Below, piece by piece: positions 17,181 through 30,347 of a DNA stretch of 40,505 nucleotides (position 1 is the first letter of the stretch; every line of letters starts with the position of its first letter). Source of the DNA: Candidatus Kaiserbacteria bacterium RIFCSPHIGHO2_02_FULL_49_16. Its GTDB lineage: Bacteria; Patescibacteriota; Minisyncoccia; Phycocordibacterales; UBA2100. A model generated the notes under the pieces. That model was not told the DNA's origin. It did not search any database and was given only the letters and a program-made list of their open reading frames with translations. The stretch spans positions 1 through 40,505 of the forward strand of contig MFLD01000031.1 in the NCBI GenBank assembly GCA_001781465.1, written 5' to 3'. The position numbers were made by a program, and so were the translations under genes.

Positions 17181-17564
17181 CTACTGAAATTTTATTTGGA
17201 AATTGTACATGCCCATTCCGCAGAGCCCATGCAAGGTGCCCCGCGCCTGACTCGCGCCAATCGAGATTTCTTCCGTCCCTGTCGGCTGGAGATACTTCTG
17301 GTACTGCAACTTTGGAATGACGAGGCTTGATGAGCAGTCGAAGGTTCCCTTCGTGCTTACGCGAAGAACTGTCGGCACGCCCGCTTTTGCCAAAACAACT
17401 CGGGGAGAATATCCGCCCTTCGCGGAAATATCTATGAGCTGTTTTCCGTTCACAGTGGAAACTGCGGATGAGCTATCGACATTGGCAGGTTTTCCGGCAA
17501 ACCAAAACGCGCCAAAGATGAGGAGTGCGCTTATGCAAACGGAAACAAGAACCGCTTTATTCAT
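17181..17564 (-). CDS. Exported cupredoxin-like domain protein
   Basis: 127 aa with a signal/anchor helix. The C-terminal GTLHGLCGMGMYNFQIKF resembles the Cys/Met/His ligand end of Cupredoxin_1-type domains. Confidence 0.6.
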   Translation of the reverse strand: MNKAVLVSVCISALLIFGAFWFAGKPANVDSSSAVSTVNGKQLIDISAKGGYSPRVVLAKAGVPTVLRVSTKGTFDCSSSLVIPKLQYQKYLQPTGTEEISIGASQARGTLHGLCGMGMYNFQIKFQ

Positions 17565-17573
17565 GAAGTTAAA

Positions 17574-18638
17574 CTAGAAATTAAAAAGCGGATTGATAAT
17601 TCCGGCTGTCGCAAACGCATTCGCGAGATTAAATAGCGCAAGCGCAATAACAATTATTCCCGCAGTCTTAAAGAATATTCCTTTCCACGGCTTATGCGCG
17701 ATATTGAGCGAGCCGAATGAAAGAAGCGCCAGGACTGGCAAGGTGCCAAGGGCGAAAGCCGTCATCGTGAGAGCACCTTCCAAAAAACTCCCTGTCGTAA
17801 GAGCGTACAGCTGCATTGATTGGGTGAACCCGCACGGCAAAAAGAATGTTCCGATACCGACTAAAACAGGTGCTAGAAAATGATCGTGCTTCGCCCCGCG
17901 CACGACATGCTTTGAGAGCCATTTAGGCATCGTCAATTGCAGTCTTTTTGCGAAATGAAATACATCGAGCAGATTGATTCCGAGAATGAGCATCACGAGA
18001 GCGACAATTATTCCGAGGACAATATTTGCAGTTAATCCAAGGTGGAGCGAGTTTCCAATCACTCCGATTATGCCCCCGAGAACAAAAAAACCTCCGAGTC
18101 TTCCCAAATGAAAAAGCGTCTGCGTTCGCCAAGTTCCACCTTCTTTCGCAGAACTTGCCGAAAGAGACAAGACAAGACCGCCGACTATCGCAAGACAAGT
18201 GGAAACCGATGCAATGAGTCCGATAACAAATGCAGTTCCATAACTGACATTCGACGAGGTTATTAAGTTTGTTAATCCGGCTTTCTGAAGCGCGAGAAAT
18301 CCAACAATTACGACGAGCGCAATTGGAAGCGCGTATACAAAATCTTTCCATCCCGCGTCTTTTTTCATTCTTTCCAATGAAATAGTGTAGCCGTGGCTTT
18401 TTACCAGCTTCGTCAATTCTTCCGCGATTTTCTCTGGCGAACCGGCAAATTCACCGGTCACAATAACCTGATGATTCGCAAGCGACGCGCGCGCGCTTGC
18501 GATATTAGGAAGCTCCTTGAATGTCTCCTCAATAAGAAGAGGGCACGCCGAGCAGTGCATTCCGTGAACATGGAATGTGTATATCTTTGGGTCCGATTTC
18601 GGGCCGATGAGTCCGACATCGGCATCTGTAGACGACAT
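17574..18638 (-). CDS. Heavy-metal-associated (HMA) domain fused to a DsbD_2/TauE-like 6-TM domain
   Basis: GMHCSACPLLIEETF is the HMA motif, followed by a multi-pass membrane domain. The track ORF extends to 18749. That extension overlaps a better small ORF in another frame, so the ATG at 18638 (MSSTDADV) is preferred. Confidence 0.75.
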   Translation of the reverse strand: MSSTDADVGLIGPKSDPKIYTFHVHGMHCSACPLLIEETFKELPNIASARASLANHQVIVTGEFAGSPEKIAEELTKLVKSHGYTISLERMKKDAGWKDFVYALPIALVVIVGFLALQKAGLTNLITSSNVSYGTAFVIGLIASVSTCLAIVGGLVLSLSASSAKEGGTWRTQTLFHLGRLGGFFVLGGIIGVIGNSLHLGLTANIVLGIIVALVMLILGINLLDVFHFAKRLQLTMPKWLSKHVVRGAKHDHFLAPVLVGIGTFFLPCGFTQSMQLYALTTGSFLEGALTMTAFALGTLPVLALLSFGSLNIAHKPWKGIFFKTAGIIVIALALFNLANAFATAGIINPLFNF

Positions 18639-18685
18639 AAGCAACCATCTTATCACGCTGATATTTTTCACGCCTTGACTACAAA

Positions 18686-18802
18686 TCATTTCACCGCTAA
18701 GAAGATAAGAGCAGCGAGAGGTATTGCGCAACAGACGAGCATCATCCACATCATGTGCTTGTGCTCACCCTGTCCGCCGTTTGTATTGTTATGATTGTGC
18801 AT
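18686..18802 (-). CDS. 38-aa His-rich membrane peptide (DUF2933-like), not in the ORF track
   Basis: MHNHNNTNGGQGEHKHMMWMMLVCCAIPLAALIFLAVK has a His-rich head, a CC pair and one TM helix. This layout is typical of small peptides in metal-resistance loci. The family name is from memory. Confidence 0.55.
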   Translation of the reverse strand: MHNHNNTNGGQGEHKHMMWMMLVCCAIPLAALIFLAVK

Positions 18803-18811
18803 AGATTGCGA

Positions 18812-19195
18812 TTACACATTATCGATTACCGTTTTTAATTTCTTTTCCGCTGTTTCAGCAATGTCGGCCAAAGACGGATTATCTATCATCGACATCGCGG
18901 CGGTCGGAAGCATCGCTGACACATACACATTTCCGTTTTCCTCGTAAACGATTACATTGCATGGCATGATGAGACCGACATCTTTCTCAGCTTTGAGAGC
19001 CTTGAGAGCGAGCGTCGGATTGCAAACGCCGAGTATGAGGTAATTCTCATGGTCAACGCCGAGCTTTTTCTTGAGCGTCGCTTTCACATCTATTTCGGTA
19101 AGCACGCCGAGTCCTTCTTTTTCAATCTCGCTTCTCACTCTCTCCACTGTTTTCACAAATGGAAGCTGTATTTTTCTTTTGTATCCGTATTCCAT
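18812..19195 (-). CDS. DUF302 domain protein
   Basis: 127 aa. VERVRSEIEKEGLGVLTEIDVKATLKKKLGVDHENYLILGVCNP matches the DUF302 pattern I recall. Confidence 0.7.
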   Translation of the reverse strand: MEYGYKRKIQLPFVKTVERVRSEIEKEGLGVLTEIDVKATLKKKLGVDHENYLILGVCNPTLALKALKAEKDVGLIMPCNVIVYEENGNVYVSAMLPTAAMSMIDNPSLADIAETAEKKLKTVIDNV

Positions 19196-19239
19196 AGCGT
19201 TAAAGATGCACTATCTTTTATTAGTCCGTTAATAACCCA

Positions 19240-20166
19240 TTATATTCCGCATTCGCTTCGCTGTCGCGGAGCGCGCGACTCACTTTCAACGCCGCAGCCG
19301 CCGCCTCCGCTTGCCGGAGACTTCTGAACGAGCGACATAATCCGCGCGTAACCTGCATTGCCAGAATAATTGGCGCCAAGAATTTCCTTAGGCGACACAT
19401 CTTTCCACTGGACGCCTCTGCTTTTCATGTAGGCCTCGATGGTTTGATATGTGTCCGGAAACCAGTATGAGTTCACCGCAAGAGCTGTTTTGTACATTTC
19501 TTTTTCACCAACGCCTTGCGATGCCATCAATTCCAGAAGCCCCAGCATCGCCATTCCGTGATTGCAATCCGGAAAGTGCGCAGAATTTCCGCAGCACGGC
19601 CGGAAGATTCCTCGCGACACGCTATCGACCAGTTGTTGCTGCTCCGGTGTCAACTCAATGAGCGCGTGCTTGCCGTAGTGATTCATCGCGTTCCCCTTCG
19701 CAACCGTCCATCCTCCGGTTGAGGCAAAGTTCCCTGCCCCTCCGTACGACGGGTTCATCATTTCCGTTTTGTCTTCGAGTATCGGATTCTTGTTCGCGAG
19801 TCCCAGCGCCCAAAGAAGATTCAGTAGGTATCCGGAGTTCTCTTCGTTGACAGTCAGTTTTCCGTTATTGTTCCCGACCAGCAATTTTCGATACTCGTCC
19901 GTAAATTGCCCATGGTTTTTGTAGAGAGCAGAGAACTTTGCCTCGTCAATCGCTCCAGTTTCTACCAGCCGCGTGCCTAAATCTCCCCATACTGCCGGCA
20001 ACACGACTCCGACTCCGTTTTGCGGAACCGTCGCTTCCGCGGAATGGCTGCTACCTAGATTGATTGTGTTGGTCGGGCTTTCCGGAAGCGGAGCAAGATA
20101 TATAAGCGACGCCACAATGACTACGAACACGATTCCTAAGGTCAGTTCTTGTGTTTCTTTTTCCAT
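19240..20166 (-). CDS. Membrane-anchored exported Cys/His-rich protein of unknown function
   Basis: 308 aa with an N-terminal TM helix, the motif PCCGNSAHFPDCNHGMAMLG and a C-terminal GGGGCGV...SECGI. Confidence 0.65.
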   Translation of the reverse strand: MEKETQELTLGIVFVVIVASLIYLAPLPESPTNTINLGSSHSAEATVPQNGVGVVLPAVWGDLGTRLVETGAIDEAKFSALYKNHGQFTDEYRKLLVGNNNGKLTVNEENSGYLLNLLWALGLANKNPILEDKTEMMNPSYGGAGNFASTGGWTVAKGNAMNHYGKHALIELTPEQQQLVDSVSRGIFRPCCGNSAHFPDCNHGMAMLGLLELMASQGVGEKEMYKTALAVNSYWFPDTYQTIEAYMKSRGVQWKDVSPKEILGANYSGNAGYARIMSLVQKSPASGGGGCGVESESRAPRQRSECGI

Positions 20167-20188
20167 AGTTTAATTTCATTTATTCTAA

Positions 20189-20668
20189 TTAGCAGCAATC
20201 TTTCATTTTATTCTCAATTTCTTCGATTGATTCTTCGCGCGAGTCCGTTCTGCTGTTTGAGGATAGGAACAAAGTTGATATAAGAACGAGAAAAACAGTA
20301 ATCAGGATGAGCGCACTCCACAACTGCAACAGAGCGCTGTATGCGGCCGCGAAGCCGGCAGGAATGAAGAGAGCTTTCCAGAGAAGAAGCGCGTCGGACG
20401 ACCCGCGGAATTTTCTCTTCAACCCCGTTAGAGGCCATGCCTCTAACGGGGCAAGCTGGTACGCAATTCCAATCACAGTTCCGCCCATAAGAAGCGCGGG
20501 CACTATCAAATTAATTTGATAGCCCAGGAAATGCGTGATAAGAAGCCCCGTCCATGTGAGAAACACCCCGGCGCAAATCGGGCAAACTGCAAATGGCAGA
20601 AAGCGGTTCGCGAGCCACACTAGAGCAGTAATGGCGAGAATTGAGATTACAGTGACAGCAATTAGCAT
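20189..20668 (-). CDS. Multi-pass membrane protein with a CPIC (CxxC) motif, carrying an internal hairpin insertion
   Basis: The ORF track gives 20189..20704. The ATG at 20668 (MLIAVTV) starts 5 nt after the upstream stop. It has AVCPICAGVFLTW, and a C-terminal CC. Confidence 0.6.
   Translation of the reverse strand: MLIAVTVISILAITALVWLANRFLPFAVCPICAGVFLTWTGLLITHFLGYQINLIVPALLMGGTVIGIAYQLAPLEAWPLTGLKRKFRGSSDALLLWKALFIPAGFAAAYSALLQLWSALILITVFLVLISTLFLSSNSRTDSREESIEEIENKMKDCC
20423..20451. mobile_element. Copy E2: minimal CCCCGTTAGAGG hairpin inside the CxxC membrane protein gene
   Basis: CCCCGTTAGAGG (20423-20434), loop ccatg, CCTCTAACGGGG (20440-20451). It is flanked by CAA on both sides and encodes PLEAWPLTG in the host frame. 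Confidence 0.6.
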
Positions 20669-20672
20669 AATT

Positions 20673-21503
20673 TCAGATGAAGAGAATAAGCGCGCCGAGA
20701 GCAATCATCGCTATGCCCGCGATGAGGCGAACGCGAGAAAGGTTGTCCCGTTTCCATTCCTGCATTTTGTCTACCACGGTTTTATCGGCAGAGAACCACA
20801 GGACGAGAATGAGAGGAACGATGAGAACGAGATTGTACAGAAGGAGATACCAGAATCCCGCGAGGTATGTTTGGCTGTCGCGAAGAAGCCCGATGACCAT
20901 TAAGTACGGCCCTCCCATGCACGGGAATTGGCAGACGCCGACCAATGCGCCGAGCCCAAATGCCGCCAAGACGGATGTCCTCTCCAATAGCTTCGCCATC
21001 GGACGATGCGCGATTTCCGGCATTTTGAGTTTAATCGGAATGTCCGGAAAGAATCGGTTCAATAGATTCACGATGCCGAAAATTATGAGAAGCGATGCGC
21101 CGAGCTTTCCCATAAAATGGGGAGTGTTGAAGAGATGCAAGACCTTGAGAAGGCCGAGACCTATTAGGAAGTATGACGCGAAGATGCCAGCGATATATAC
21201 TCCGCCGATTTGCAGAATTTTCTCGCGCGTAAGCTGGAGCCCGAACAGGAACGCTATCGTGATGAGGAGAATCGAGAACGAACACGGATGCACGCTGTCC
21301 AAGAGCGACGATATGAGCACAAGCGGAAGAAGCCACGCCCCGCTCCCGCTCGCGTTCCAGATAAGCGTTGATGTTGCGGGACTGAATTTCAGAATAATAA
21401 TTCCGAGAATGAATGCTCCAATGACGCCGGCGATGATGATAATTCGACGCATCCCGTTAGAGACAGGTCGCGGTCGTGTATTGTCTTCAGGTAATGTGTT
21501 CAT
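20673..21503 (-). CDS. CcdA/DsbD-family thiol:disulfide transfer membrane protein
   Basis: 276 aa, multi-pass, with conserved Cys in TM segments (LDSVHPCSFSILL and VCQFPCMGGPYL). The first 17 codons are encoded by element E3. The ancestral ATG is probably at 21452. Confidence 0.7.
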   Translation of the reverse strand: MNTLPEDNTRPRPVSNGMRRIIIIAGVIGAFILGIIILKFSPATSTLIWNASGSGAWLLPLVLISSLLDSVHPCSFSILLITIAFLFGLQLTREKILQIGGVYIAGIFASYFLIGLGLLKVLHLFNTPHFMGKLGASLLIIFGIVNLLNRFFPDIPIKLKMPEIAHRPMAKLLERTSVLAAFGLGALVGVCQFPCMGGPYLMVIGLLRDSQTYLAGFWYLLLYNLVLIVPLILVLWFSADKTVVDKMQEWKRDNLSRVRLIAGIAMIALGALILFI

Positions 21504-21567
21504 AGAGAGTGGAAGAGTCTTATATGCAATCTCGGTTAAGGATTGAGCGACCGTGGTCTCTAACGGG
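21453..21567. mobile_element. Copy E3: 115-bp inverted-repeat element with a 6-bp target-site duplication at the ccdA-like start codon
   Basis: Arms CCCGTTAGAGAC (21453-21464) and GTCTCTAACGGG (21556-21567). The direct repeat ACGCAT flanks both ends (21447-21452 and 21568-21573). Confidence 0.75.
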
Positions 21568-21574
21568 ACGCATA

Positions 21575-22066
21575 TTATGGTGTTACAAGCGCCTTTATTT
21601 CAAGTTGAAGCGCGCCACCGGAAGAATCTGTGAGCTCCACGAATCTGTCAATCTGCCCTACGCCAGCCGGGCCGTGCGCGTTTGGGTCGTAGACGACGCG
21701 GATTGCACGGCTTTCTCTCGCTTTGATAACTTCATTTGCTGGCGGAATGTATCCCATGCCGGGCATTCCGAACGGTCCCTTAAGCTTGCCATCCGCGCGA
21801 ACGATGAAGGCGGCTGTGCACATGCAGGAAGTAACGACCGTGCGCACGGTTATGTCATCGCCGGTAGGATTGTTTATTGCGAACTCTTTGCTCACAAGGC
21901 CGTTTTTCATTGATATCGTACCGAAGTCGTACAGAATCTCCGGCGCGACGAGAGAACTTTTCGAGTTGTTAGTTTGCGCAGGCGCAATCGCTTGACTGAT
22001 TCGTCCCCATGACATGAGGCCAAGCCCGCCGACTAATATGGCTGCGCCGATTATTAGTGTTTTCAT
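21575..22066 (-). CDS. DUF1573 domain protein (exported)
   Basis: 163 aa with a signal/anchor helix. YDFGTISMKNGLVSKEFAINNPTGDDITV...TSCMCT is DUF1573-like. Confidence 0.7.
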   Translation of the reverse strand: MKTLIIGAAILVGGLGLMSWGRISQAIAPAQTNNSKSSLVAPEILYDFGTISMKNGLVSKEFAINNPTGDDITVRTVVTSCMCTAAFIVRADGKLKGPFGMPGMGYIPPANEVIKARESRAIRVVYDPNAHGPAGVGQIDRFVELTDSSGGALQLEIKALVTP

Positions 22067-22123
22067 AGTGTTGATGTTTTAGAGAATTGTTAAAACAAAA
22101 AGCCCGCAAATGAAGCGAGCACG

Positions 22124-22171
22124 AGCCCAGCCGCAGATTGTGAATGACTTTTCACAATCTGCGGCTGGGCT
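22124..22171. repeat. Perfect 21-bp-stem hairpin (6-nt loop) immediately 3' of the 143-aa gene
   Basis: AGCCCAGCCGCAGATTGTGAA (22124-22144), loop tgactt, TTCACAATCTGCGGCTGGGCT (22151-22171). On the minus strand a weaker stem plus TTTTTGTTTT follows at about 22092-22120. Confidence 0.9.
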
Positions 22172-22172
22172 T

Positions 22173-22598
22173 CTAAACCAAAGATGGGCTGTGTTCGAAC
22201 AATGAAAGCCAACGAGTGGTTTCTCTATCTCGCGCAGATGAAGAGGGGTTATATAAAGATCTTACCCGTCGAGGTTGAAATGCCGGCGGACGAATAAGGG
22301 ATATAAAAACTCCGCAAGCAAGCATGAGCAATGCAATGAGGAGCGCCATCATGCCCGAGCTTGCGGGCGCATTGAGAAGAGACTGATACGCGGAGATGTG
22401 GTGAACTGCGGCGGCGACCAAATCTTGCGGACATAGAGGAACACCCATAGCGGTAAACGGGCAACCCGCCTCCATGCTCCCGCTCGAATTGTGCGTCATT
22501 GTACCGAAACTAAAGAGAACGATAGCGAGAAGCGATGCCAGCATGAGAGCGGCGAGTAATTTTGACAATGGCGTACGATGTCGCAATCGCATGAACAT
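22173..22598 (-). CDS. Membrane protein with a CPF...LCP / HH motif, unknown function
   Basis: The track start at 22604 is TTG, and the ATG is at 22598. It has a TM helix, then GSMEAGCPFTAMGVPLCPQDLVAAAVHHISAYQ, then a second TM helix. Confidence 0.55.
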   Translation of the reverse strand: MFMRLRHRTPLSKLLAALMLASLLAIVLFSFGTMTHNSSGSMEAGCPFTAMGVPLCPQDLVAAAVHHISAYQSLLNAPASSGMMALLIALLMLACGVFISLIRPPAFQPRRVRSLYNPSSSARDRETTRWLSLFEHSPSLV

Positions 22599-22604
22599 AA
22601 GCAA

Positions 22605-22751
22605 TTAATCCTTTACAGCATGACTGATAATCTCCAAATTGCAACTTTTATGTTGCTTGCACCACGCTTCGTATTTTTTCATCCATGATTCTTCCTTGTA
22701 AATTAGACCGCACTCGCGACAGATATATTTTCCATTTTTTGATGTATTCAT
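22605..22751 (-). CDS. 48-aa Cys-rich (zinc-ribbon-like) peptide translationally coupled to copA, not in the ORF track
   Basis: The ATG at 22751-22749 overlaps the copA TGA (ATGA). MNTSKNGKYICRECGLIYKEESWMKKYEAWCKQHKSCNLEIISHAVKD has CxxC ... CxxHxxC. Its TAA ends at 22605, abutting the next ORF. Confidence 0.55.
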   Translation of the reverse strand: MNTSKNGKYICRECGLIYKEESWMKKYEAWCKQHKSCNLEIISHAVKD

Positions 22752-25081
22752 AGTCTTTTTGTCTTAAGCCGCAACGAATTTCCGACCACGCTTACACTGC
22801 TAAAGGCCATCGCAAGCCCTGCGAACACCGGCGAGAGAAGCCAGCCAAATACCGGATAGAAAATACCGCTCGCGAGCGGAATGCCTACAATGTTATATAT
22901 GAACGCCCAGAAAAGATTCTGCTTGATTCCGCGCATAGTTAATTTGGAAAGCCGTATGGCTTTCACCAATTTTGAAATGTCTCCGTGAAGAAGCGTGATG
23001 CCGGCGGATTCTATTGCGACATCCGTTCCCGTCGCCATCGCGATTCCGACATCCGCCTGCGCCAATGCCGGCGCATCGTTTACTCCGTCTCCCGCCATCG
23101 CGACGGTTAGCCCTTGCGCTTGAAATTCTTTTATTTTTCTCAACTTGTCTTCCGGCAGAACTTCTGCGACAACTTCGTCAATTCCAACTTGCCTTGCAAT
23201 AAATTGGGCGGTGTTGTTGTCGTCTCCTGTCAGCATTACTGTTTTAATTCCGAGCGCGTGCAAATTCGCCACCGCAGAAACCGCCTCGGGCTTCACTTGG
23301 TCCGCAATCATCGCAACTGCCAGCACTTTTTTATCTGAAACAAGAATGACCGGTGTTTTGCCTTCCCTCGTACCGTTCTCTAACTGCATACCAAGGTCTG
23401 ACCTTGGGGATTCGGATTTAAGGTCAGACCTTGGTATGCCTGTTGCACCAACCTCCCACGCGAATTTGGCGCTCCCAACGCGGTACTCTGCGCCTCCGAT
23501 GCTACCAACGATTCCTTTGCCTTTAACCATTTCAAATTCTTCCACGGGCAAAAGCGAGATGCCTTTTGCTTTCGCATACGAAACTACGGCATGCGCAATC
23601 GGATGCTCTGATTTATTTTCAAGCGACGCGAGAATCGCAATTATTTCCGCATCGCTTTTTTTAGATAGATTCTCGAGCGATACAAGTTCCGGTTTGCCTT
23701 TCGTAATCGTCCCCGTCTTGTCCATTATGACAACTCCTACTTTATGCAGTTTTTCAAGCGTCGCGGCATCTTTGACAAGTATTCCCTCTCTCGCCCCTTT
23801 GCCAACTCCCACGATAATCGCTGTCGGAGTGGCAAGCCCGAGCGCGCACGGACACGCAATCACGAGAATACCGACGAAGGAAACAAGCCCGAAAGAGAGC
23901 GCTTGCGAAAACCCAAGGTATTGAGTTCCTATTGCGAGCCACGCGCCAAGCGAAACGAATGCAATAACAAGCACTATAGGAACAAAAACACCAGATATTT
24001 TGTCCGCAAGCGCCTGAATCGGCGCTCGGCTTCCCTGCGCTTCTTCAACCATTTTCACAATATGAGCCAGCATAGTTTCGGAGCCGACTTTAGTCGCCTT
24101 AAATGTAAACGAGCCGGTCGTATTTATTGTCCCCGCGACAACCGTGCCGCCGATAGTCTTTTTAACCGGCATCGGCTCGCCCGTTATCATTGACTCGTCT
24201 ACATAAGACGAACCCTCTGTGAGTTCTCCGTCAACAGGAATTTTCCCAGCGGGCTTGACGATTATTAAGTCGCCGTGAACTACTTGGTCTACGGGGATTT
24301 CTGTTTCTTTCCCGAGGCGCACAACCAGCGCTGTTTTCGCCTGCAAGTTCAACAGTTTTTCTATCGCATCGCCCGTTTTCAATTTCGACTGCGCTTCAAG
24401 ATATTTTCCCAGCGCGATGAAAGTGATGACAATAATGGTGACATCGTAATAAGTATTCTCAACATTGATAAAAGGCCGGAGTGTTTCTTCAAAAGCGGTA
24501 ATCACAAAACTGTAAAGATATGCAGCGGAAGTTCCAATGCCTATAAGCGTGTCCATGTTCGCCTTGCCATAGCGGAGAAAGCGATAGAATCCAAGAAGGT
24601 AGGGCTTCCCGACAACGAATAGAACATATGTCGCCATAAGCGGAAGCAGATGATGGAAAAACTCTTTCCATAGATATGGAACGGCGGGCAAAATCCCGAA
24701 TTGAGCGGAGATTTCCCAACTCATTACAAATACGCTGAAAATGGCGAGCGGAACGGCGGAAAAAACTTTTGCGCGCATGTCTGCGATTCCCGCGAGCTTC
24801 TCCGTCTTTGATTGGTTGAGTCCGAGGTGCGCCGCGTGCTCGCTTCCTGTCATACTCATTGACGCCGCCGTCGGTTGAACGAAAGAATATCCAAGCGGTT
24901 TTATTTTTTCCGAAAGATGTTCCGGATTCGTTTTTGTTTCGTCGAACGAAATTCTCGCCGCTTCAGTTCCATAATTCACTTCGATTGAATGTACGCCATC
25001 AACTTTTTTGAGCGTCTTTTCAATAATTGCCGAGCACGACGCACAGTGCATTCCCTTTATTTTATATGTGTGTGATGCCAT
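22748..25081 (-). CDS. copA: Copper-translocating P1B-type ATPase
   Basis: 777 aa with one N-terminal HMA domain (GMHCASCSAIIE), the TM CPC motif (ACPCALGLATP), DKTGTIT and GDGVNDAP. Confidence 0.95.
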   Translation of the reverse strand: MASHTYKIKGMHCASCSAIIEKTLKKVDGVHSIEVNYGTEAARISFDETKTNPEHLSEKIKPLGYSFVQPTAASMSMTGSEHAAHLGLNQSKTEKLAGIADMRAKVFSAVPLAIFSVFVMSWEISAQFGILPAVPYLWKEFFHHLLPLMATYVLFVVGKPYLLGFYRFLRYGKANMDTLIGIGTSAAYLYSFVITAFEETLRPFINVENTYYDVTIIVITFIALGKYLEAQSKLKTGDAIEKLLNLQAKTALVVRLGKETEIPVDQVVHGDLIIVKPAGKIPVDGELTEGSSYVDESMITGEPMPVKKTIGGTVVAGTINTTGSFTFKATKVGSETMLAHIVKMVEEAQGSRAPIQALADKISGVFVPIVLVIAFVSLGAWLAIGTQYLGFSQALSFGLVSFVGILVIACPCALGLATPTAIIVGVGKGAREGILVKDAATLEKLHKVGVVIMDKTGTITKGKPELVSLENLSKKSDAEIIAILASLENKSEHPIAHAVVSYAKAKGISLLPVEEFEMVKGKGIVGSIGGAEYRVGSAKFAWEVGATGIPRSDLKSESPRSDLGMQLENGTREGKTPVILVSDKKVLAVAMIADQVKPEAVSAVANLHALGIKTVMLTGDDNNTAQFIARQVGIDEVVAEVLPEDKLRKIKEFQAQGLTVAMAGDGVNDAPALAQADVGIAMATGTDVAIESAGITLLHGDISKLVKAIRLSKLTMRGIKQNLFWAFIYNIVGIPLASGIFYPVFGWLLSPVFAGLAMAFSSVSVVGNSLRLKTKRL
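23386..23439. repeat. Perfect 20-bp-stem hairpin (14-nt loop) inside the copA coding sequence
   Basis: GCATACCAAGGTCTGACCTT (23386-23405), loop ggggattcggattt, AAGGTCAGACCTTGGTATGC (23420-23439). It encodes the internally repeated IPRSDLKSESPRSDLGM. Confidence 0.9.
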
Positions 25082-25774: not shown

Positions 25775-26740
25775 TTAAGGCTGTTGTACGCAGTAGACCG
25801 CGGTTGGAGTATCGTCGCAATTAATACCAGCTACCGTTCCATCAACGTCTGAACTTAAAACTGATTGCCCGCTATCACTTAATGTCGCCGCCAAAACGTA
25901 CTTGGTACATGGAGTCACCGCGCATACATTATTACTATCATTGAGGGATATATATGAATATGCGGCCCCAGTAGTAGGATCTGCGGGTATCGAGGAGATG
26001 TAATTATTGTTAACAAGATCCGAGAAAGATGATATGGGGTATGTCCCGGCTTCGACGTAATTTAGCTCGAGCGCGAGTTGAAGTTGCTTAATGTCGATAA
26101 TGCGGCGCGCATCAACTGATTTCATGCGCGCGATATTAAGACTTGCTAAGACAACCGATGAAAGAATCCCGATAGCAATGGGGATTAGAAGTCCTACAAT
26201 CAGTGCAACTACTATCCAGACAGTTTTTGACTTAGACGGGTCATTTTCTACGACAACAGTATCGGCAATCTTGTCGTGTAGTCCCTGCTTCTTACCTGTC
26301 CAAGCGACCATGAGGTAACCGATGCCAAGAATAATTGATGAAATAAATTTACCGACAACTTCTCGCAGAAGGGCCCGCCCAAGGCCGACTCTCTCTCCAT
26401 TCGCCCGTAGAACGCGCAATCCGACTGCCATTTTCCCTAGAGTCGCCTGATATGTCGTTATCATGAAAACCGCATACCCCCAAGGAATAAAAAGACTTAT
26501 CGCTGATTTCCACAACAAGCTTTCAGTCCCTGCGTTTGATAAAGAAATAAGAAGTTGTAGAACTACCAAGAATAATCCGTCGACAAAAAGAGCCGCTGCT
26601 CGAACCCAAAAGCCAGCATATTTAGTCGGAATGGCACCCGCAACGAACGCGGGCATTTGCGGTACAGTTTGCGGACCTGGCACAGAAAATTGAGGCGATA
26701 CACTAAAAGCAGAAGCAGGCGGAACTTGCTCATTTGGCAT
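25775..26740 (-). CDS. RDD-family membrane protein fused to a type IV pilin-like C-terminal domain
   Basis: YAGFWVRAAALFVDGLFL... is RDD-like. After the last TM the sequence is SSVVLASLNIARMKSVDARRIIDIKQLQLALELNYVEAGTYP, like the post-helix region of CPR type IV pilins. The track start at 26812 is TTG, and the ATG is at 26740. Confidence 0.6.
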   Translation of the reverse strand: MPNEQVPPASAFSVSPQFSVPGPQTVPQMPAFVAGAIPTKYAGFWVRAAALFVDGLFLVVLQLLISLSNAGTESLLWKSAISLFIPWGYAVFMITTYQATLGKMAVGLRVLRANGERVGLGRALLREVVGKFISSIILGIGYLMVAWTGKKQGLHDKIADTVVVENDPSKSKTVWIVVALIVGLLIPIAIGILSSVVLASLNIARMKSVDARRIIDIKQLQLALELNYVEAGTYPISSFSDLVNNNYISSIPADPTTGAAYSYISLNDSNNVCAVTPCTKYVLAATLSDSGQSVLSSDVDGTVAGINCDDTPTAVYCVQQP

Positions 26741-26854
26741 AATAAATTGTGTTAGCGTATATCCCACGAGTATACGCTCGTGGTGTGCATTGAACACATT
26801 AGACCGTCGCAACTGTGGAAAACCTCAGGCCTGTCCCATCATTGACTATTCAAC

Positions 26855-27158: not shown

Positions 27159-27353
27159 TTACTGTTTCTTGAGAAATGTTTTGTATACGATGACTCCGTC
27201 AATAATCAATCCCGCGATGCCTATGAACAGCAGAAGAAAAAGGGCCCACCGCGGTAAGGTGTTGCCAGTGATGAGAGCGTACAGCGACAACAGCGCGATG
27301 CTCGGAAAAGCAATAAGTCCAAGGATATCGAAACTTTCGGGACGGACATTCAT
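27159..27353 (-). CDS. 64-aa two-helix membrane protein
   Basis: ATG start and two hydrophobic helices (ILGLIAFPSIALLSLYALI; ALFLLLFIGIAGLIIDGVIV). Confidence 0.5.
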   Translation of the reverse strand: MNVRPESFDILGLIAFPSIALLSLYALITGNTLPRWALFLLLFIGIAGLIIDGVIVYKTFLKKQ

Positions 27354-27558
27354 GTATTCATTGTATCACTTTTGTAGAAATCAAAGCGTGAGCTAGCACA
27401 ATCGGCATCCGCTCAAACTTATATACTTATCAGGCCCGGTCGGCCCCGATAAGTATATGCGTGAGAATCCGGAGCGGTTTTCTTATCAACACTCCAAACA
27501 ATTCCGCCGATATTGTGAGTTATAATACACGCGTAATTTAACAACTCTAATATTTTTT

Positions 27559-27792
27559 ATGGACAATACAAAAGTGCTGGTTGGGGCGGTTGTTGGAGTG
27601 GTTATCGGTCTTGTCGGCGGATATTATTTCGGGTACGACCGAGGCTGGGAGAGTGCAGTGACTGCGGCGAAAGCGGAGGCGGCCAAAGCTGTCGAGGCAA
27701 CAGTTAATCCGTTCGCGGATGTCAAAACGAATCCGCTTGAGGACGTAAAGACTAACCCTTACGAAAACGTAAAAACTAACCCCTTCCAATAA
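27559..27792 (+). CDS. 77-aa membrane-anchored protein with C-terminal VKTNP repeats
   Basis: TM helix VLVGAVVGVVIGLVGGYYFG, then DVKTNPLEDVKTNPYENVKTNPFQ. A TATAAT box lies at 27522-27527 upstream. Confidence 0.6.
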   Translation: MDNTKVLVGAVVGVVIGLVGGYYFGYDRGWESAVTAAKAEAAKAVEATVNPFADVKTNPLEDVKTNPYENVKTNPFQ

Positions 27793-27796
27793 CACC

Positions 27797-29776
27797 ATGA
27801 GTAACAAACTTGGCGCTTTCGGGGTATTCGCCGGGACTCTGCTCCTTGCCGGCGTCGCCTTCGCGCAGGAAAGCACTATTACTTTCCCTGTTCCAGAGCT
27901 CGGCAATTGTACGACCAAAGAGCAGTGCAAAACCTATTGCGACAACCCGACAAATCACGATTCTTGCATCGCGTTTGCGGAATCGCACGGACTGATGAGC
28001 AAAGAAGAAGTGAGAATCGCGCGCGCGGTCGGGACAGAGAAAGGACCCGGCGGATGCGTTGGACTCCAATGTAAAACATATTGCGACGATGAGAAAAATA
28101 TCGATGAGTGTTTAAGTTTCGCCAAAGAGCATAACCTTATTCCCGAAAACGAGATGGCGGTCGCGCGCGAAGTTCGAACGAAAGGGGGCCCCGGCGGATG
28201 CAGAAGCGAGAGAGAGTGCCGCGCGTACTGCGATGGCGACGGTCGGTTTGAAGAATGCATCTCGTTCGCCGAAAAACACAATCTCATACCGAAGGAGGAG
28301 CTGGAGCGCGCGAGAAAAGTCGGCGACAAGCCGGGGCCGGGAGGGTGCAGGCGAGAGGCCTGTAAGACATATTGCGAAACTCCGGGCCACATGGACGAGT
28401 GCGTTGCTTTCGCCGTGGAAAACGGATTCATGACGAAGGAGGAGGCCGAGATGGCTCGGAAAATGGGGGACAAGACAGGGCCGGGAGGGTGTCGCGGAGA
28501 AGCTTGCCGGACATATTGCGACGACCCTGCTCACGGCGAGGAATGCTTCAAGTTTGCCGAAGAGAATGGATTGATGAAACCCGAGGAAATCGAGCGCGCG
28601 AGAAAATTTATGAATAAACCCGGTCCCGGAGGATGCAAGGGTGAGGCGTGCAGGACATACTGCGAAGACCCTGCGCACGGAGATGAGTGCGTTGCCTTCG
28701 CGGTTGAGAACGGGTTTATGACCAAAGAGGAAGCCGACCGCGCGAAAAACTTCCATTCAAAAACCGGACCGGGCGGGTGCCGGGGAGAAGAATGTAAAAA
28801 TTACTGCGACAATGGGGCGCACTCGGATGAGTGTACGGCTTTTGCCGTCGAAAACGGATTCATGAGCAAAGAGGATGCCGAGCGCTCGAAAGAATTCAGG
28901 AATATGACCGGGCCGGGCGGATGCAAAGGTGAAGAATGTAAAACATTCTGCGACGACCCTGCGCACCGAGAGGAGTGCATGAAATTCGGCGAGGAGCACG
29001 GATTTGGTGGAGACCGCGGCCGGCAAGGGCCGCCGCCCGGCTCTGACGGCAGGAGAGGAGAAATGACCGGACCGGGCGGATGCAAATCCCCCGAGGAATG
29101 CAAAACCATGTGCGAATCTAACCCCGAAGCATGCCGTGGATTTGGCCCGTCTATAGGCGATTGGGTACAATCGGATGCCAGACTCATCGGCCCGCCATCA
29201 CAGGACGGAAGAGAGTTCGGCCAGGAGCGTGCTATGGAACGAAGAGGTTTCGAAATTCCTCCGGGACATATGCCTTGCCAATCCGAGGAAGAATGCAAGA
29301 AGGCATTCGAAAATAATCCAAACGCGTTTGGGGAACAACAAAGGGGAGAATTTGACCGGGGGCGGGAAACGGAATCGCGCCCGCCCGAAGGCGGGCGACT
29401 GGATGGACGGCAGATGATGAGACAGGAGGATTATCGCTCCGGGGAGACGCGCCAAGCGCCACCCGAATTCCAGAAACAATATGACACGCAGTATCAGGAA
29501 CAATACCAACGAACCGGCGCATCTGCGCAGCCTGTTCCTCAAATGAGCGGTCAGACGACGAATATGACACCAGAACAACAGCAGATGTATCAGCAATACC
29601 AGCAAACAGGAACAGCGCCATCCCCGTCCGCGCAGTACGCGCCTCCAACATCGTCCGCGACACCGCCGCCTCCTCCGCCATCATCCGAGTCTTCCTCACT
29701 TCCCCCCACGTCGCAAATAAATCGCACTGGTTTCGTCGCCGCAGTTCTCAACGTGTTCGGACCAATCTTGCGCTAA
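27797..29776 (+). CDS. Secreted protein with nine tandem ~48-aa four-cysteine repeats and a Q/P/S-rich tail
   Basis: Signal peptide AFGVFAGTLLLAGVAFAQE. The repeat unit is GPGGC(R/K)GE(A/E)C(K/R)TYCDDPAHxxEC(V/F)xFAxENGFMxKEEAxRAxK, with a DNA period of about 144-147 nt. The C-terminus is QQMYQQYQQ... PPPPPSS. Confidence 0.8.
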   Translation: MSNKLGAFGVFAGTLLLAGVAFAQESTITFPVPELGNCTTKEQCKTYCDNPTNHDSCIAFAESHGLMSKEEVRIARAVGTEKGPGGCVGLQCKTYCDDEKNIDECLSFAKEHNLIPENEMAVAREVRTKGGPGGCRSERECRAYCDGDGRFEECISFAEKHNLIPKEELERARKVGDKPGPGGCRREACKTYCETPGHMDECVAFAVENGFMTKEEAEMARKMGDKTGPGGCRGEACRTYCDDPAHGEECFKFAEENGLMKPEEIERARKFMNKPGPGGCKGEACRTYCEDPAHGDECVAFAVENGFMTKEEADRAKNFHSKTGPGGCRGEECKNYCDNGAHSDECTAFAVENGFMSKEDAERSKEFRNMTGPGGCKGEECKTFCDDPAHREECMKFGEEHGFGGDRGRQGPPPGSDGRRGEMTGPGGCKSPEECKTMCESNPEACRGFGPSIGDWVQSDARLIGPPSQDGREFGQERAMERRGFEIPPGHMPCQSEEECKKAFENNPNAFGEQQRGEFDRGRETESRPPEGGRLDGRQMMRQEDYRSGETRQAPPEFQKQYDTQYQEQYQRTGASAQPVPQMSGQTTNMTPEQQQMYQQYQQTGTAPSPSAQYAPPTSSATPPPPPPSSESSSLPPTSQINRTGFVAAVLNVFGPILR

Positions 29777-29821
29777 TTCTTGCGCGTCTCGCTTCTGGCC
29801 CAAGGCCCTATTTCCTAATTG

Positions 29822-29894
29822 AGCCGCCTCCCAGACTCGAACTGGGGACCTTCACTTTACAAAAGTGTTGCTCTACCAACTGAGCTAAGGCGGC
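29822..29894 (-). tRNA. tRNA-Thr (anticodon UGU)
   Basis: The reverse complement is GCCGCCTTAGCTCAGTTGGTAGAGCAACACTTTTGTAAAGTGAAGGTCCCCAGTTCGAGTCTGGGAGGCGGCT. The cloverleaf has a 7-bp acceptor stem, a GCTC/GAGC D stem, the anticodon loop TTTGTAA and a CCCAG/CTGGG T stem with TTCGAGT. CCA is not encoded. Confidence 0.9.
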
Positions 29895-29903
29895 GTAAGC
29901 GTA

Positions 29904-30347
29904 CTATAACTGAAGCGTTGCGTCGTCGCCACTTGAACCGCTGTTCTGGCCACTGCTAGCGCCAGAACTGCCGTTGTTTTTCGCGTGCTCGCTCACCTGC
30001 TTCAAGAATTCCGAGCGTGTTTCCCCTTTCTTGAAGTGATGCTTATGGGAAACGAAATCCGCGAGGCGATGCGCTTGCGATTCAAGAAAGCGCGCGAAGC
30101 GCGCCGCCCCAAGCGCGGCTTCATGTACCGCGACGCGCAACAAATGCATGAAAACTCCCGGAAGTTTGGACATTTCCGCGCGCTTACGAAGAAGCAATGA
30201 TTTGAGTTGTATTGCGTGTTCATCGGCTTTTTCTCGCAACTCCTGAGGAAGGACCATCTTTTGGTGCTGATCCTCGAGATGCTTAGCGACAAACAATCCG
30301 ATGATGCCCAGGAGCGAGATAAAGAAGATAATGGATGTGAAAATCAT
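29904..30347 (-). CDS. Membrane-anchored hypothetical protein
   Basis: 147 aa with an N-terminal TM helix (IFTSIIFFISLLGIIGLFV), a charged helical middle and a Ser/Gly-rich tail. Confidence 0.55.
   Translation of the reverse strand: MIFTSIIFFISLLGIIGLFVAKHLEDQHQKMVLPQELREKADEHAIQLKSLLLRKRAEMSKLPGVFMHLLRVAVHEAALGAARFARFLESQAHRLADFVSHKHHFKKGETRSEFLKQVSEHAKNNGSSGASSGQNSGSSGDDATLQL

What the first reader, a model, noticed from the sequence alone, without database searches (positions are those of the whole stretch)
27797..29776. Secreted protein made of nine 48-aa four-cysteine repeats (36 Cys) next to the copper island
- Seen: the repeat unit is GPGGC-x4-C-x3-C-x8-C-x2-FAxENGFMxKEEAxRA, with a DNA period of about 144-147 nt from about 27900 to 29135.
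- Repeats 4 and 6 share an identical ECVAFAVENGFMTKEEA, which suggests recent conversion or duplication.
- After the repeats come an acidic/basic spacer and a Q/P/S-rich tail.
- It is preceded by a small VKTNP-repeat membrane protein and followed by tRNA-Thr.
- The regular Cys spacing suggests stacked disulfide knots or metal-thiolate sites. I cannot assign it to a named family.
- Several long antisense ORFs in the track arise from the repeat periodicity.
Basis: partly seen in the sequence, partly recalled or inferred. Interest (0 to 1): 0.65.

Follow-up and report, generated by a model that had tools for sequence, protein, structure and literature searches.

The report
Cysteine-repeat secreted protein with membrane partner
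This gene encodes a secreted protein built from nine small helical modules, each held by four cysteines. It belongs to a large, unnamed family found only in ultra-small groundwater bacteria (Patescibacteria), and it always sits directly behind a tiny membrane-protein gene, so the two probably work together at the cell surface.

Summary
ORF 27797-29776 (+) encodes a 659-aa protein with a signal-peptide-like N-terminus, nine four-Cys motifs and one two-Cys remnant (38 Cys).

- **No named family.** Pfam, NCBIfam, PDB sequence search and Foldseek find no significant match.
- **Large family.** More than 2,100 homologues exist, in about 1,900 clusters at 50% identity. Nearly all named ones are Patescibacteria.
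- **Structure.** AlphaFold2 predicts each 48-aa unit as three helices (pLDDT 85).
- **Disulfides favoured.** Half-units keep either C1-C2 or C3-C4, extra cysteines come in pairs, and some homologues carry Kazal or laminin-G domains.
- **Conserved partner.** The upstream 77-aa membrane protein with NPF repeats is present in 84 of 84 evaluable loci, at a median gap of 4 nt. Its motif number correlates with unit number (rho 0.45).
- **Copper link not conserved.** Copper genes lie nearby in only 4-5 of 55 clusters.
- **No recent conversion.** The shared 17-mer differs at 9 of 51 bases, all synonymous.
- **No misassembly.** Contigs from four sequencing runs match exactly.

Best reading: an undescribed two-gene cell-surface cassette, in which a disulfide-stapled helical scaffold is tethered by a membrane partner. 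The function is inferred, not shown.

The parts
27419..27460 (.). Palindromic hairpin (11-bp perfect arms ATATACTTATC, 16-nt GC-rich spacer) in the divergent intergenic region upstream of the cassette. It may be an operator or RNA element; its role is unknown.
   Evidence: Both arms were found exactly. The fold is -28.4 kcal/mol with z = -4.45. A related TACTTAT...ATAAGTA palindrome lies upstream in L009 but not in L010-L012.
27482..27526 (+). Conserved upstream element CTTATCAACAC (27482-27492) and a TATAAT -10-like box (27521-27526), about 35 nt before the partner's ATG. This is the likely promoter of the two-gene operon.
   Evidence: The same TTATCAACA motif and a TATAAT/TATACT box stand at the same distance in L001 and L009-L012. 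The coordinates were checked. The generic sigma-70 scan did not flag it.
27559..27792 (+). Partner gene. It encodes a 77-aa protein with a single N-terminal Gly-rich transmembrane helix, an Ala/Glu/Lys linker and four C-terminal NPx motifs (VNPFA, KTNPLE, KTNPYE, KTNPFQ), ending at the C-terminus in NPFQ.
   Evidence: - ORF.
- Alignments with orthologues.
- Directly upstream and on the same strand in 84 of 84 evaluable loci, at a median gap of 4 nt.
- Its own family has 323 hits, named ones all Patescibacteria.
- No significant Pfam or NCBIfam hit.
27797..27865 (+). Signal-peptide-like N-terminus MSNKLGAFGVFAGTLLLAGVAFA, with likely cleavage after AFA.
   Evidence: The sequence has a basic n-region, a 19-residue hydrophobic core and an AxA motif. 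Homologues have equivalent N-termini. No dedicated predictor was available, so this is inferred.
27866..28042 (+). Conserved mature N-terminal cap (QESTITFPVPELGNC) plus unit 0, a four-Cys three-helix module.
   Evidence: P7, L11 and C14 of this segment are invariant, and E10 and G12 nearly invariant, across 121 sequences. pLDDT is 81-96.
28043..29068 (+). Units 1-7. Each starts with GPGGC and follows C-x4/5-C-x3-C-x8-C-x2-FA-x-x-[NH]G[LF][IM]-x-x-EEA-x-RA[KR]K. Unit 7 lacks the third helix.
   Evidence: - Unit table.
- Consensus from 656 units.
- Three helices per unit with block pLDDT 85-96.
- Two-unit model with pLDDT 81.5.
29069..29134 (+). Unit 8: short Cys core GPGGCKSPEECKTMCESNPEAC (spacing 5, 3, 6) without the helical tail.
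   Evidence: The same short terminal unit is seen in homologues.
29273..29296 (+). Half-unit remnant PCQSEEEC. It keeps C1 and C2, while both the C3 and C4 positions are Phe.
   Evidence: Eleven such C-x5-C half-units occur in the family. In the relatives P0003 and P0004 the half-unit at the corresponding place keeps only C-x6-C, the C3-C4 spacing.
29135..29455 (+). Charged spacer of mixed acidic and basic residues. It contains the half-unit listed above.
   Evidence: Aa 459-555 hold 20 D/E and 16 K/R in 97 residues. pLDDT is below 50 over aa 450-480, the modelled part of the spacer.
29456..29728 (+). Q/P/S/T/Y-rich low-complexity region ending in a poly-Pro run and LPPTSQ.
   Evidence: There are 18 Q, 16 P, 12 S, 11 T and 6 Y in 89 residues. 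The median P+Q fraction in the equivalent region of 242 family members is 0.25.
29729..29776 (+). C-terminal hydrophobic/amphipathic tail GFVAAVLNVFGPILR, followed by the stop codon.
   Evidence: 131 of 242 family members have a tail with mean Kyte-Doolittle hydropathy above 0.8, and 73 of those end in R or K. The median uncharged stretch is 9 aa, too short for a membrane span.

Best explanation
Genes 27559-27792 and 27797-29776 form a conserved two-gene operon that appears restricted to Patescibacteria of the Parcubacteria/Paceibacteria type.

**Proposed mechanism.**
1. The large protein is exported by the Sec pathway.
2. Each of its roughly 48-aa units folds into a three-helix module.
3. Two local disulfides staple each module. 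C1-C2 sits at the start of helix A. C3-C4 ties the end of helix A to helix B.
4. The eight to nine modules, joined by GPGG turns, form one continuous helical repeat scaffold.
5. The small partner sits in the membrane through its N-terminal helix.
6. The partner presents an acidic tail with about four (V/I)KTNPFE motifs on the outside.
7. These motifs dock along the basic faces of the repeat modules, about one motif per two units, and tether the scaffold to the cell surface.
8. The C-terminal half is the variable, outward-facing end. It holds a charged spacer, a P/Q-rich stretch and a short amphipathic tail. In other lineages it also holds Kazal or laminin-G modules.

**Shown.** The gene pair, its universal co-occurrence and tight spacing, the repeat anatomy, the predicted helical fold, and the absence of any named family.

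**Inferred.** Export, disulfide pairing, partner topology, physical docking, and the envelope or scaffold role.
For: **Family and fold.**
- More than 2,154 homologues, with top E of 1e-180. Named ones are Patescibacteria, plus a few labelled only 'bacterium'.
- The unit profile finds 1,885 clusters at 50% identity among 1.84 billion proteins. The best 150 all have 6-13 units.
- AlphaFold2 gives pLDDT 85.3 and pTM 0.63 with three helices per unit. The two-unit model gives pLDDT 81.5.

**Disulfides.**
- All four Cys are present in 1076 of 1086 units.
- Half-units keep either C1-C2 (11 cases, including this protein) or C3-C4 (2 cases).
- Extra cysteines appear in pairs.
- 106 of 121 proteins have an even Cys count.

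**Extracellular modules in relatives.**
- Kazal domains occur in P0001, P0016 and P0036.
- Laminin_G_3 occurs in P0262 and P0317.

**Partner.**
- Directly upstream in 84 of 84 evaluable loci, at a median gap of 4 nt, with 3-5 NPx motifs, ending in NPF[EKQD].
- In 5 of 6 look-ups started from the partner, a Cys-repeat gene lay directly downstream: sequence-checked for L019-L021 and by ORF scan for L022 and L024. In the sixth (L023), no gene had been called there, but an 8-unit Cys-repeat ORF is present.
- Motif number correlates with unit number (Spearman rho 0.45, p = 3e-4, n = 61).
- Charges weakly favour an N-in/C-out topology. K/R count is 2.25 before the helix against 1.70 after it, and the tail has a net charge of -2.2.

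**Promoter.** A conserved upstream motif and TATAAT box occur in relatives.
Against: - No experiment and no expression data are available, because no RNA run holds the locus.
- Partner topology rests on a weak charge bias.
- The motif/unit correlation is not corrected for phylogeny.
- The four Cys lie close enough in sequence that, if reduced, they could form a metal site.
- Copper or thiol-redox genes occur near the cassette in a minority of lineages.
- The C-terminal tail is present in only about half of the family members sampled.
Confidence: 0.45

Rival explanations
1. Extracytoplasmic metal buffer or chaperone for copper or zinc. The four invariant cysteines of each unit stay reduced and bind Cu(I) or Zn(II). 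The protein would soak up metal exported by the neighbouring CopA-type pump.
For: - The window has a copper island 2.5 kb away, with cupredoxin, an HMA-DsbD_2 fusion, DUF302, a DsbD_TM-like protein and CopA.
- CopA, HMA and cupredoxin lie near the cassette in L004.
- A multicopper oxidase is directly upstream in L020.
- A P-type ATPase lies upstream in L019.
- A DsbD_TM-like gene is adjacent in L014 and a thioredoxin lies near in L009.
- C2 and C3 sit one helical turn apart, so all four sulfurs would cluster (inferred).
Against: - Copper genes lie near the cassette in only 4 of 55 clusters, plus one with a multicopper oxidase. That matches fmt/def (4), a T2SSE-type ATPase (6) and NDK (3).
- A 47%-identical relative (L001) has no copper genes within 10 kb.
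- The L019 ATPase lacks a CPC motif.
- Half-units that keep only C1-C2 or only C3-C4 fit pairwise disulfides, not a four-ligand site.
- The conserved His/Asn at unit position 20 followed by Glu at +3 fits a helix N-cap, and Asn is not a typical metal ligand (inference).
- Kazal domains on the same polypeptide need an oxidising folding environment.
- Neither the PDB sequence search nor Foldseek returned any copper-storage or metallothionein entry.
Confidence: 0.15
2. Free secreted or surface adhesin, or host-interaction factor, of an episymbiotic cell. The repeat array is only a spacer. The partner would be a dedicated export or maturation helper rather than an anchor.
For: - The architecture is extracellular: a signal peptide, a repeat stalk and variable C-terminal modules (Kazal, laminin-G lectin-like).
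- Large Cys-rich extracellular proteins were proposed to act in attachment in Peregrinibacteria, another CPR phylum (PMC4736985).
Against: - The repeat region is well conserved (40-50% identity) across differently named candidate lineages, and the modal unit number is fixed at nine. That is unlike fast-evolving host-specific adhesins.
- The most conserved parts are the N-terminal cap and the repeats, not the variable C-terminal modules.
- The motif/unit correlation suggests direct binding of the partner to the array.
Confidence: 0.15
3. Surface-bound protease-inhibitor coat, with the family acting mainly as Kazal-type inhibitors.
For: About a quarter of the top 120 homologues carry Kazal Pfam hits. 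One to three Kazal domains are confirmed in P0001, P0016 and P0036, and one source names a relative 'Kazal-type serine protease inhibitor'.
Against: The window protein has no Kazal hit even at E <= 1. Where present, the Kazal domain is a C-terminal add-on outside the repeats. Most family members lack it.
Confidence: 0.07
4. Assembly artefact or non-coding repeat, in which the long ORF results from a collapsed or expanded tandem repeat.
For: There is a tandem DNA period of 144 nt, and Logan contigs break at 28516-28543.
Against: - Units are only 48-70% identical at the DNA level, too divergent to collapse.
- Contigs of four runs match with zero differences and no joints in the repeats.
- The close relatives L009-L012 and L025-L027 also have nine units.
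- Synonymous differences inside identical peptide stretches show selection on the protein.
- Thousands of homologues exist.
Confidence: 0.01

Closest known systems
Secreted tandem disulfide-rich module proteins, such as SCREPs (PMC6262176) and avian cysteine-rich eggshell membrane protein (PMC12723725). Both were found.
   Same: A signal peptide is followed by many head-to-tail copies of a small module with a fixed cysteine pattern, and the cysteines are probably structural.
   Different: I read only the titles and abstracts of these papers. They are animal proteins. Here the module is predicted as a three-helix unit with the pattern C-x4/5-C-x3-C-x8-C, the host is a bacterium, and there is an obligate membrane partner gene.
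Kazal-type inhibitor domains (Pfam PF00050, PF07648)
   Same: They are extracellular and disulfide-dependent, and they sit on the same polypeptide in some family members.
   Different: The repeat unit itself gives no Kazal hit. The window protein has no Kazal domain.
Helical hairpins stapled by cysteines: twin CX9C (CHCH, such as Cox17) and twin CX3C (small Tim) proteins. This comparison rests on my own knowledge.
   Same: Short helices are held together by two disulfides, and a CX3C motif lies inside a helix.
   Different: In those families each of two helices carries one CXnC motif, giving two inter-helix bridges. Here helix A carries CX3C, helix B carries one Cys and the fourth Cys lies in the preceding loop, so the likely pairing is C1-C2 and C3-C4. 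Those proteins are single domains of the mitochondrial intermembrane space, not tandem arrays. No sequence or fold match was found.
Copper storage proteins Csp1/Csp3 and metallothioneins. This comparison rests on my own knowledge.
   Same: They are Cys-rich, and Csp proteins have cysteines on helices. This gene lies near copper genes in the window.
   Different: Csp proteins are four-helix bundles with a Cys-lined core. Metallothioneins generally lack aromatic residues and stable helices. The units here have conserved Tyr and Phe, about 8% Cys and three short helices. No hit was found.
Phage Rz-type i-spanins, as an analogy for the partner only
   Same: They are small proteins with one N-terminal membrane helix and an extracytoplasmic helical tail. 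There are weak PHROG hits at E = 4e-4 to 6e-3.
   Different: The hits are weak and cover mainly the membrane helix and the Ala-rich linker. There are no lysis genes nearby, and NPF repeats are not a spanin feature. I do not consider the partner a spanin.

Membership tests
Unnamed Patescibacteria four-Cys repeat protein family (defined here) | Signal peptide, then the cap motif FP(I/V)xELGxC, then six or more units of C-x4/5-C-x3-C-x8-C-x2-F(A/G) | tested here: met
   The window protein has all of these. The pattern is shared by 121 aligned members.
Unnamed Patescibacteria four-Cys repeat protein family (defined here) | A small gene for a single-pass membrane protein with C-terminal NPF repeats lies directly upstream on the same strand | tested here: met
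   The partner is at 27559-27792, 4 nt before the large gene. The rule holds in 84 of 84 loci.
Unnamed Patescibacteria four-Cys repeat protein family (defined here) | P/Q-rich low-complexity C-terminal region ending in a short hydrophobic tail | tested here: met
   Both are present in the window protein. The tail is found in 131 of 242 family members, so it is frequent but not universal.
Kazal-type serine protease inhibitor (PF00050/PF07648) | Pfam profile match above the gathering score | tested here: not met
   The window protein has no Kazal hit at E <= 1. Hits occur only in some homologues, outside the repeats.
Copper storage protein (Csp1/Csp3) | Four-helix bundle with a Cys-lined core, or sequence or fold similarity to solved Csp structures | tested here: not met
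   PDB sequence searches with the protein and with the unit profile give nothing relevant. Foldseek against the PDB gives a best E of 0.23 and 3.5 with TM below 0.3. The units are three-helix modules.
Metallothionein | Very high Cys content with CxC/CxxC clusters, few or no aromatic residues, and no stable secondary structure without metal | tested here: not met
   The units have 4 Cys in 48 residues, conserved Tyr (86%) and Phe (94%), and confident helices.
Metal-binding function in general (not a family) | Bound Cu, Zn or Fe with reduced thiols in the native protein | not testable with these tools
   This needs ICP-MS and thiol or disulfide mapping. The sequence evidence leans towards disulfides.
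Twin CX9C / twin CX3C helical hairpin proteins | Two helices, each carrying a CX9C or CX3C motif | tested here: not met
   The spacing is 4/5, 3, 8. Only helix A has CX3C and helix B has a single Cys.
Myxococcus-type cysteine-rich repeat and other curated Cys-repeat models (Pfam, NCBIfam) | Match to a curated profile | tested here: not met
   No NCBIfam family matches at E <= 1. The only Pfam hits are YrzK at E = 4.9e-4 and 20.8 bits, below its 27.8-bit cut-off, and SPP1_GP23-1 at E = 0.16.
Sortase (LPXTG) or other C-terminal sorting-signal substrates | Sorting motif, then a membrane-spanning hydrophobic stretch of about 20 aa, then a basic tail | tested here: inconclusive
   The window protein has LPPTSQ, a 14-aa hydrophobic stretch and a final Arg. 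The motif is not LPXTG, the hydrophobic stretch is too short (family median 9 uncharged residues), and no NCBIfam sorting-domain model matches. A P(P)[TS][SG] motif precedes the tail in 67 of 131 tails.
Anti-phage defence or phage protein families (PADLOC, PHROGs) | Profile match | tested here: not met
   PADLOC gives no hits. PHROGs gives only weak hits at E >= 1.7e-4.

The most novel reading that the evidence does not exclude
The pair is an undescribed, clade-wide envelope system of Parcubacteria-type Patescibacteria that works by a new kind of recognition. A membrane-anchored peptide carries about four NPF motifs, and these zip onto a new disulfide-stapled three-helix repeat fold, one motif per two units. 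This would set the position or length of a surface scaffold that carries variable outward-facing modules. If true, it would define both a new protein fold family and a new motif-repeat docking principle in bacteria that are mostly uncultivated.
Probability: 0.3. Interest if true: 0.7.

Novelty: new variant of a known kind. Interest (0 to 1): 0.55.

Why it matters
Patescibacteria make up a large share of bacterial diversity, yet very little is known about how their cells are built or how they contact other cells. This is a compact two-gene unit that appears restricted to the Parcubacteria-type lineages. It has no curated family, no solved structural relative and a confident predicted fold.

The protein can be expressed and its structure solved. 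Its disulfides or metals can be measured, and its binding to four short partner peptides can be tested directly. A named domain family for the repeat and for the partner would also improve the annotation of thousands of proteins now labelled 'hypothetical'.

The work also removes a tempting but unsupported reading, namely that this is a copper-binding protein because it lies near a copper island.

Tried and rejected
- **Curated families.** Pfam, NCBIfam, PADLOC and PHROGs gave nothing significant for either protein.
- **Solved structures.** PDB sequence searches with the protein and with the unit profile found nothing.
- **Fold comparison.** Foldseek against the PDB, using both the 456-residue and the two-unit model, gave only generic helical-repeat noise with TM below 0.3.
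- **Disulfide pairing from co-loss.** I tried to infer pairing from co-loss of cysteines within profile-detected units. It failed because 1076 of 1086 units keep all four. Half-units outside the profile hits were informative instead.
- **Copper linkage.** I tested it on 103 loci in 55 clusters and rejected it as a conserved feature.
- **Recent gene conversion.** Rejected between units 3 and 5.
- **Misassembly.** Rejected.
- **Expression data.** No RNA runs hold the locus.
- **Genome-collection scans.** The scan with the large alignment failed for lack of a conserved stretch. The scan with the single protein returned only 10 loci.
- **Literature.** Searches for the motif, for Cys-rich Patescibacteria proteins and for novel folds found no description of this family.
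- **Promoter and terminator scan.** Uninformative.
- **VKOR-like ORF.** The weak VKOR-like hit of the 64-aa ORF 27159-27353 was dismissed. It is below the cut-off and the ORF has no cysteine.
- **L018.** The contig labelled Gammaproteobacteria carries a different Cys-rich protein with only one unit-like motif. It is not a family member.
Full report

Yes. ORF 27797-29776 on the + strand encodes 659 aa starting with MSNKLGAFGVFAGTLLLAGVAFA.

The protein has 38 cysteines. Thirty-six lie in nine motifs of the form C-x4/5-C-x3-C-x6/8-C, which start at aa 38, 87, 135, 184, 232, 280, 328, 376 and 429. Two more lie in a remnant, PCQSEEEC, at aa 493-500.
- Units 0-6 are full modules of 48-49 aa.
- Unit 7 has the cysteine core and two helices, but then runs into a Gly/Arg/Pro linker.
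- Unit 8 is a short core only.

Tandem Repeats Finder reports only 28517-29004 (period 144, 68% matches), because the units are just 48-70% identical in DNA. Six antisense ORFs of 135-214 aa overlap the gene. Given the evidence for the + strand product below, I treat them as by-products.

**2. Assembly and repeat history**

Logan contigs from four independent groundwater and soil metagenome runs lie on 27400-30000 with no differences, indels or joints inside the repeats. The close relatives L009-L012 and L025-L027 also have nine units each.

The identical 17-residue stretch in units 3 and 5 is encoded by DNA that is 42/51 identical, and all nine differences are synonymous. Across the two whole units, 20 of the 35 codons with the same amino acid use a different codon. 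This is old duplication under protein-level selection, not recent conversion.

Comparison with the relatives P0003 and P0004 (47% identical overall) shows that the outer units (0-2, 7, 8) correspond one to one. The central units 3-6 map onto two units of the relative, so unit gain or loss has occurred in the centre over evolutionary time.

**3. A large, unnamed family**

No significant match was found in any of these:
- Pfam. The best hit is YrzK at 20.8 bits, below its 27.8-bit cut-off.
- NCBIfam.
- PADLOC.
- PHROGs, where the best hit is E = 1.7e-4 to a family of unknown function.
- PDB sequences, searched with the protein and with a unit profile.

In contrast, the metagenome-scale protein search returns more than 2,154 homologues, with E down to 1e-180 and 36-53% identity. 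Every hit that carries a taxon name is from Patescibacteria (Kaiserbacteria, Azambacteria, Sungbacteria, Wildermuthbacteria, Parcubacteria, Paceibacterota); a few are labelled only 'bacterium'. Almost all are called 'hypothetical protein'.

A profile of a single unit (alignment A5) finds 1,885 clusters at 50% identity among 1.84 billion representatives. Of these, 1,107 have E <= 1e-30, and the best 150 all carry 6-13 units. The module therefore occurs almost only in this multi-unit architecture.

Among the window protein and its 120 best homologues, the modal unit number is nine (69 of 121). Cysteine counts are even in 106 of 121.

The unit consensus is GPGGC-[RK]-[GS]-x(2,3)-C-[RK]-x-Y-C-[ED]-[DN]-P-x-[HN]-x-[ED]-E-C-[LIV]-x-F-A-E-x-[NH]-G-[LF]-[IM]-x-x-E-E-A-x-R-A-[KR]-K.

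Literature searches found no description of this family. A 2016 paper on Peregrinibacteria, another CPR phylum, noted large Cys-rich extracellular proteins and suggested attachment, but described different proteins (PMC4736985).

**4. Structure**

AlphaFold2 on aa 25-480 with the 121-sequence alignment gives mean pLDDT 85.3 and pTM 0.63. The ten-residue block means are 85-96 across the repeat units. Each unit forms three helices, and the linkers after units 7 and 8 are disordered. A two-unit model gives the same helices.
- C1 lies in the loop just before helix A.
- C2 and C3 lie one turn apart on helix A.
- C4 lies on helix B.

Foldseek against the PDB finds nothing. The best E is 0.23 for the array and 3.5 for two units, with TM-scores below 0.3.

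Coordinates were not returned, so I could not measure sulfur-sulfur distances or describe the overall shape. 'Continuous helical repeat array' is what the secondary structure and pTM support. 'Rod' is my inference.

**5. Disulfides or metal?**

The four cysteines are present in 1076 of 1086 profile-detected units, so co-loss within units says nothing. Degenerate half-units are informative.
- Eleven keep only C-x5-C in the context PPC-x-S-x-EEC, which is C1-C2. The window's own remnant is one of these, and both its C3 and C4 positions are Phe.
- In P0003 and P0004 the half-unit at the corresponding place keeps only CKENPEAC, which is the C3-C4 spacing of short units.
- No half-unit keeps C1 with C3, or C2 with C4.
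- Extra cysteines, such as FAC-x9-C in P0015, appear in pairs.

Some relatives carry Kazal domains (one to three copies) or laminin-G/ConA-like domains between the repeats and the C-terminus. These are extracellular modules, and Kazal domains need disulfides.

The conserved His/Asn at unit position 20 with Glu at +3 fits a helix N-capping box better than a metal ligand (my inference).

Together this favours two local disulfides per unit, C1-C2 and C3-C4. It does not exclude a redox or metal role for the reduced form.

**6. The partner gene is the strongest result**

The 77-aa ORF directly upstream has the following parts:
- an N-terminal Gly-rich membrane helix;
- an Ala/Glu/Lys linker;
- four NPx motifs, ending in KTNPFQ at the very C-terminus.

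Synteny evidence:
- A homologous small gene lies directly upstream on the same strand in all seven loci first examined.
- The same holds in nine more loci from the genome scan.
- In five of six look-ups that started from the partner, a Cys-repeat gene lay directly downstream. In the sixth (L023), no gene had been called there, but an 8-unit Cys-repeat ORF is present.
- A metagenome scan with the peptide pattern GPGGC[RK]GE[AEQ] added 80 loci.
- Over all loci with at least 300 nt of upstream sequence and an intact N-terminus, the partner is present in 84 of 84. One apparent exception, L061, was a failure of my first regular expression.

Across these loci the median gap is 4 nt, the length is 72-107 aa, there are three to five NPx motifs (four in 61 of 84), and the usual ending is NPF[EKQD].

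The partner family has 323 detectable members. Every member that carries a taxon name is from Patescibacteria; a few are labelled only 'bacterium'. The named groups include Portnoy-, Nealson-, Ryan-, Wolfe-, Colwell- and Zambryskibacteria.

The number of NPx motifs correlates with the number of Cys units (Spearman rho 0.45, p = 3e-4, n = 61). Partners with three motifs go with a mean of 6.5 units, and partners with four motifs go with 8.2. This is not corrected for shared ancestry.

Charge distribution weakly favours an N-in/C-out topology.

Close relatives share an upstream TTATCAACA motif and a TATAAT box.

**7. The copper island**

The window does have a copper and thiol-redox cluster at about 17.2-25.1 kb:
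- a cupredoxin;
- an HMA-DsbD_2 fusion;
- DUF302;
- a DsbD_TM-like protein;
- DUF1573;
- a CopA-type ATPase with an HMA domain.

Copper genes also occur near the cassette in L004, L012, L025 and L069. A multicopper oxidase is adjacent in L020. L019 has a P-type ATPase upstream, but it lacks a CPC motif.

After clustering 103 loci into 55 groups, CopA-like genes are near the cassette in 4 clusters. At least two of these share the window's YggU-CopA synteny by descent. Other neighbours are just as frequent: fmt/def in 4 clusters, a T2SSE-type ATPase in 6, and NDK, RDD, VTT and signal peptidase in 3 each.

A 47%-identical relative (L001) has no copper genes within 10 kb. I conclude that the adjacency is lineage-specific and gives at most a weak hint.

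**8. Most likely mechanism**

*Shown:*
- a conserved, tightly spaced two-gene unit;
- a signal-peptide-like N-terminus;
- a fixed array of helical four-Cys modules;
- a variable C-terminal half with P/Q-rich sequence, and in about half of the members a short hydrophobic tail that is too short to span a membrane.

*Inferred:*
- The large protein is exported and oxidised.
- It forms a stiff helical scaffold.
- The partner sits N-in/C-out and binds the basic helix-C faces of the modules with its acidic NPF motifs, about one motif per two units.
- This tethers the scaffold at the cell surface.
- The C-terminal half, which in other lineages carries Kazal or lectin-like modules, faces the wall or the environment.

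I give this 0.45. The rivals are a copper or zinc buffer (0.15), a free adhesin or effector (0.15), a protease-inhibitor coat (0.07) and an artefact (0.01).

**9. Novelty and verdict**

The sequences are public but unnamed, the fold has no solved relative, and the partnership has not been described in the literature I could search.

The general kind, a secreted tandem Cys-rich repeat protein, is known. I therefore rate this a new variant of a known kind rather than categorically new. Interest is 0.55.

Noticed in passing
window 27419-27460: Strong palindromic hairpin (11-bp perfect arms, -28.4 kcal/mol, z = -4.45) between the divergent 64-aa ORF and the cassette. No T-run follows it on either strand. 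L009 has a related TACTTAT...ATAAGTA palindrome at a similar place. It may be an operator.
   Followed up: partly
window 27482-27526; also L001 and L009-L012 upstream regions: Conserved CTTATCAACAC element about 30 nt upstream of a TATAAT box before the partner gene. The spacing is too long for a standard -35/-10 pair, so it may be a regulator site or a lineage-specific promoter element.
   Followed up: partly
window 17181-25081 (- strand): Copper and thiol-redox gene cluster. It contains:
- cupredoxin (17181-17564);
- HMA fused to DsbD_2 (17574-18749);
- DUF302 (18812-19195);
- two unknown ORFs (19240-20166 and 20189-20704);
- a DsbD_TM/SfLAP-like membrane protein (20673-21503);
- DUF1573 (21575-22066);
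- an unknown 143-aa ORF (22173-22604);
- a CopA-type ATPase with HMA (22748-25081).
   Followed up: partly
window 25775-26812 (- strand): RDD-family membrane protein. Its C-terminal half (LASLNIARMKSVDARRIIDIKQLQLALELNYVEAGTYP...) looks to me like a type IV pilin-like N-terminal helix plus a globular domain with cysteines. This would be an unusual fusion. It was not tested.
   Followed up: no
L018 1-2763 (contig labelled uncultured Gammaproteobacteria): A different protein of more than 921 aa, very rich in cysteine. It has one unit-like motif (CSTPEECDNYCRNNPGVRGC), many CGDGxC-type repeats and a C-terminus EYNPFNVFKPVKQLLGI that combines an NPF motif with a hydrophobic tail. The bin label may be wrong.
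   Followed up: partly
window 29610-29821, run X2: One Logan contig in one run joins 29610 to 29821, skipping 210 nt (the last 55 codons of the gene and the spacer up to the tRNA). Only 29 letters lie on the shorter side. It may come from a related strain or a graph artefact.
   Followed up: no
P0015 (homologue), for example aa 317-340: Some family members have six-Cys units with an extra pair (FAC-x9-EEC) that would link helix B to helix C. This could be a natural test case for disulfide engineering of the module.
   Followed up: no
L014 2954-4057; L009 986-1522: A DsbD_TM-like membrane protein lies directly downstream of the cassette in L014. A thioredoxin-fold protein lies 1.5 kb upstream in L009. 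These occasional thiol-redox neighbours could matter for the redox state of the cysteines.
   Followed up: partly
window 27159-27353 (- strand): A 64-aa two-helix membrane ORF divergent from the cassette, with a sub-threshold VKOR-like Pfam hit (E = 5.6e-4). It has no cysteine, so it is not a functional VKOR.
   Followed up: partly
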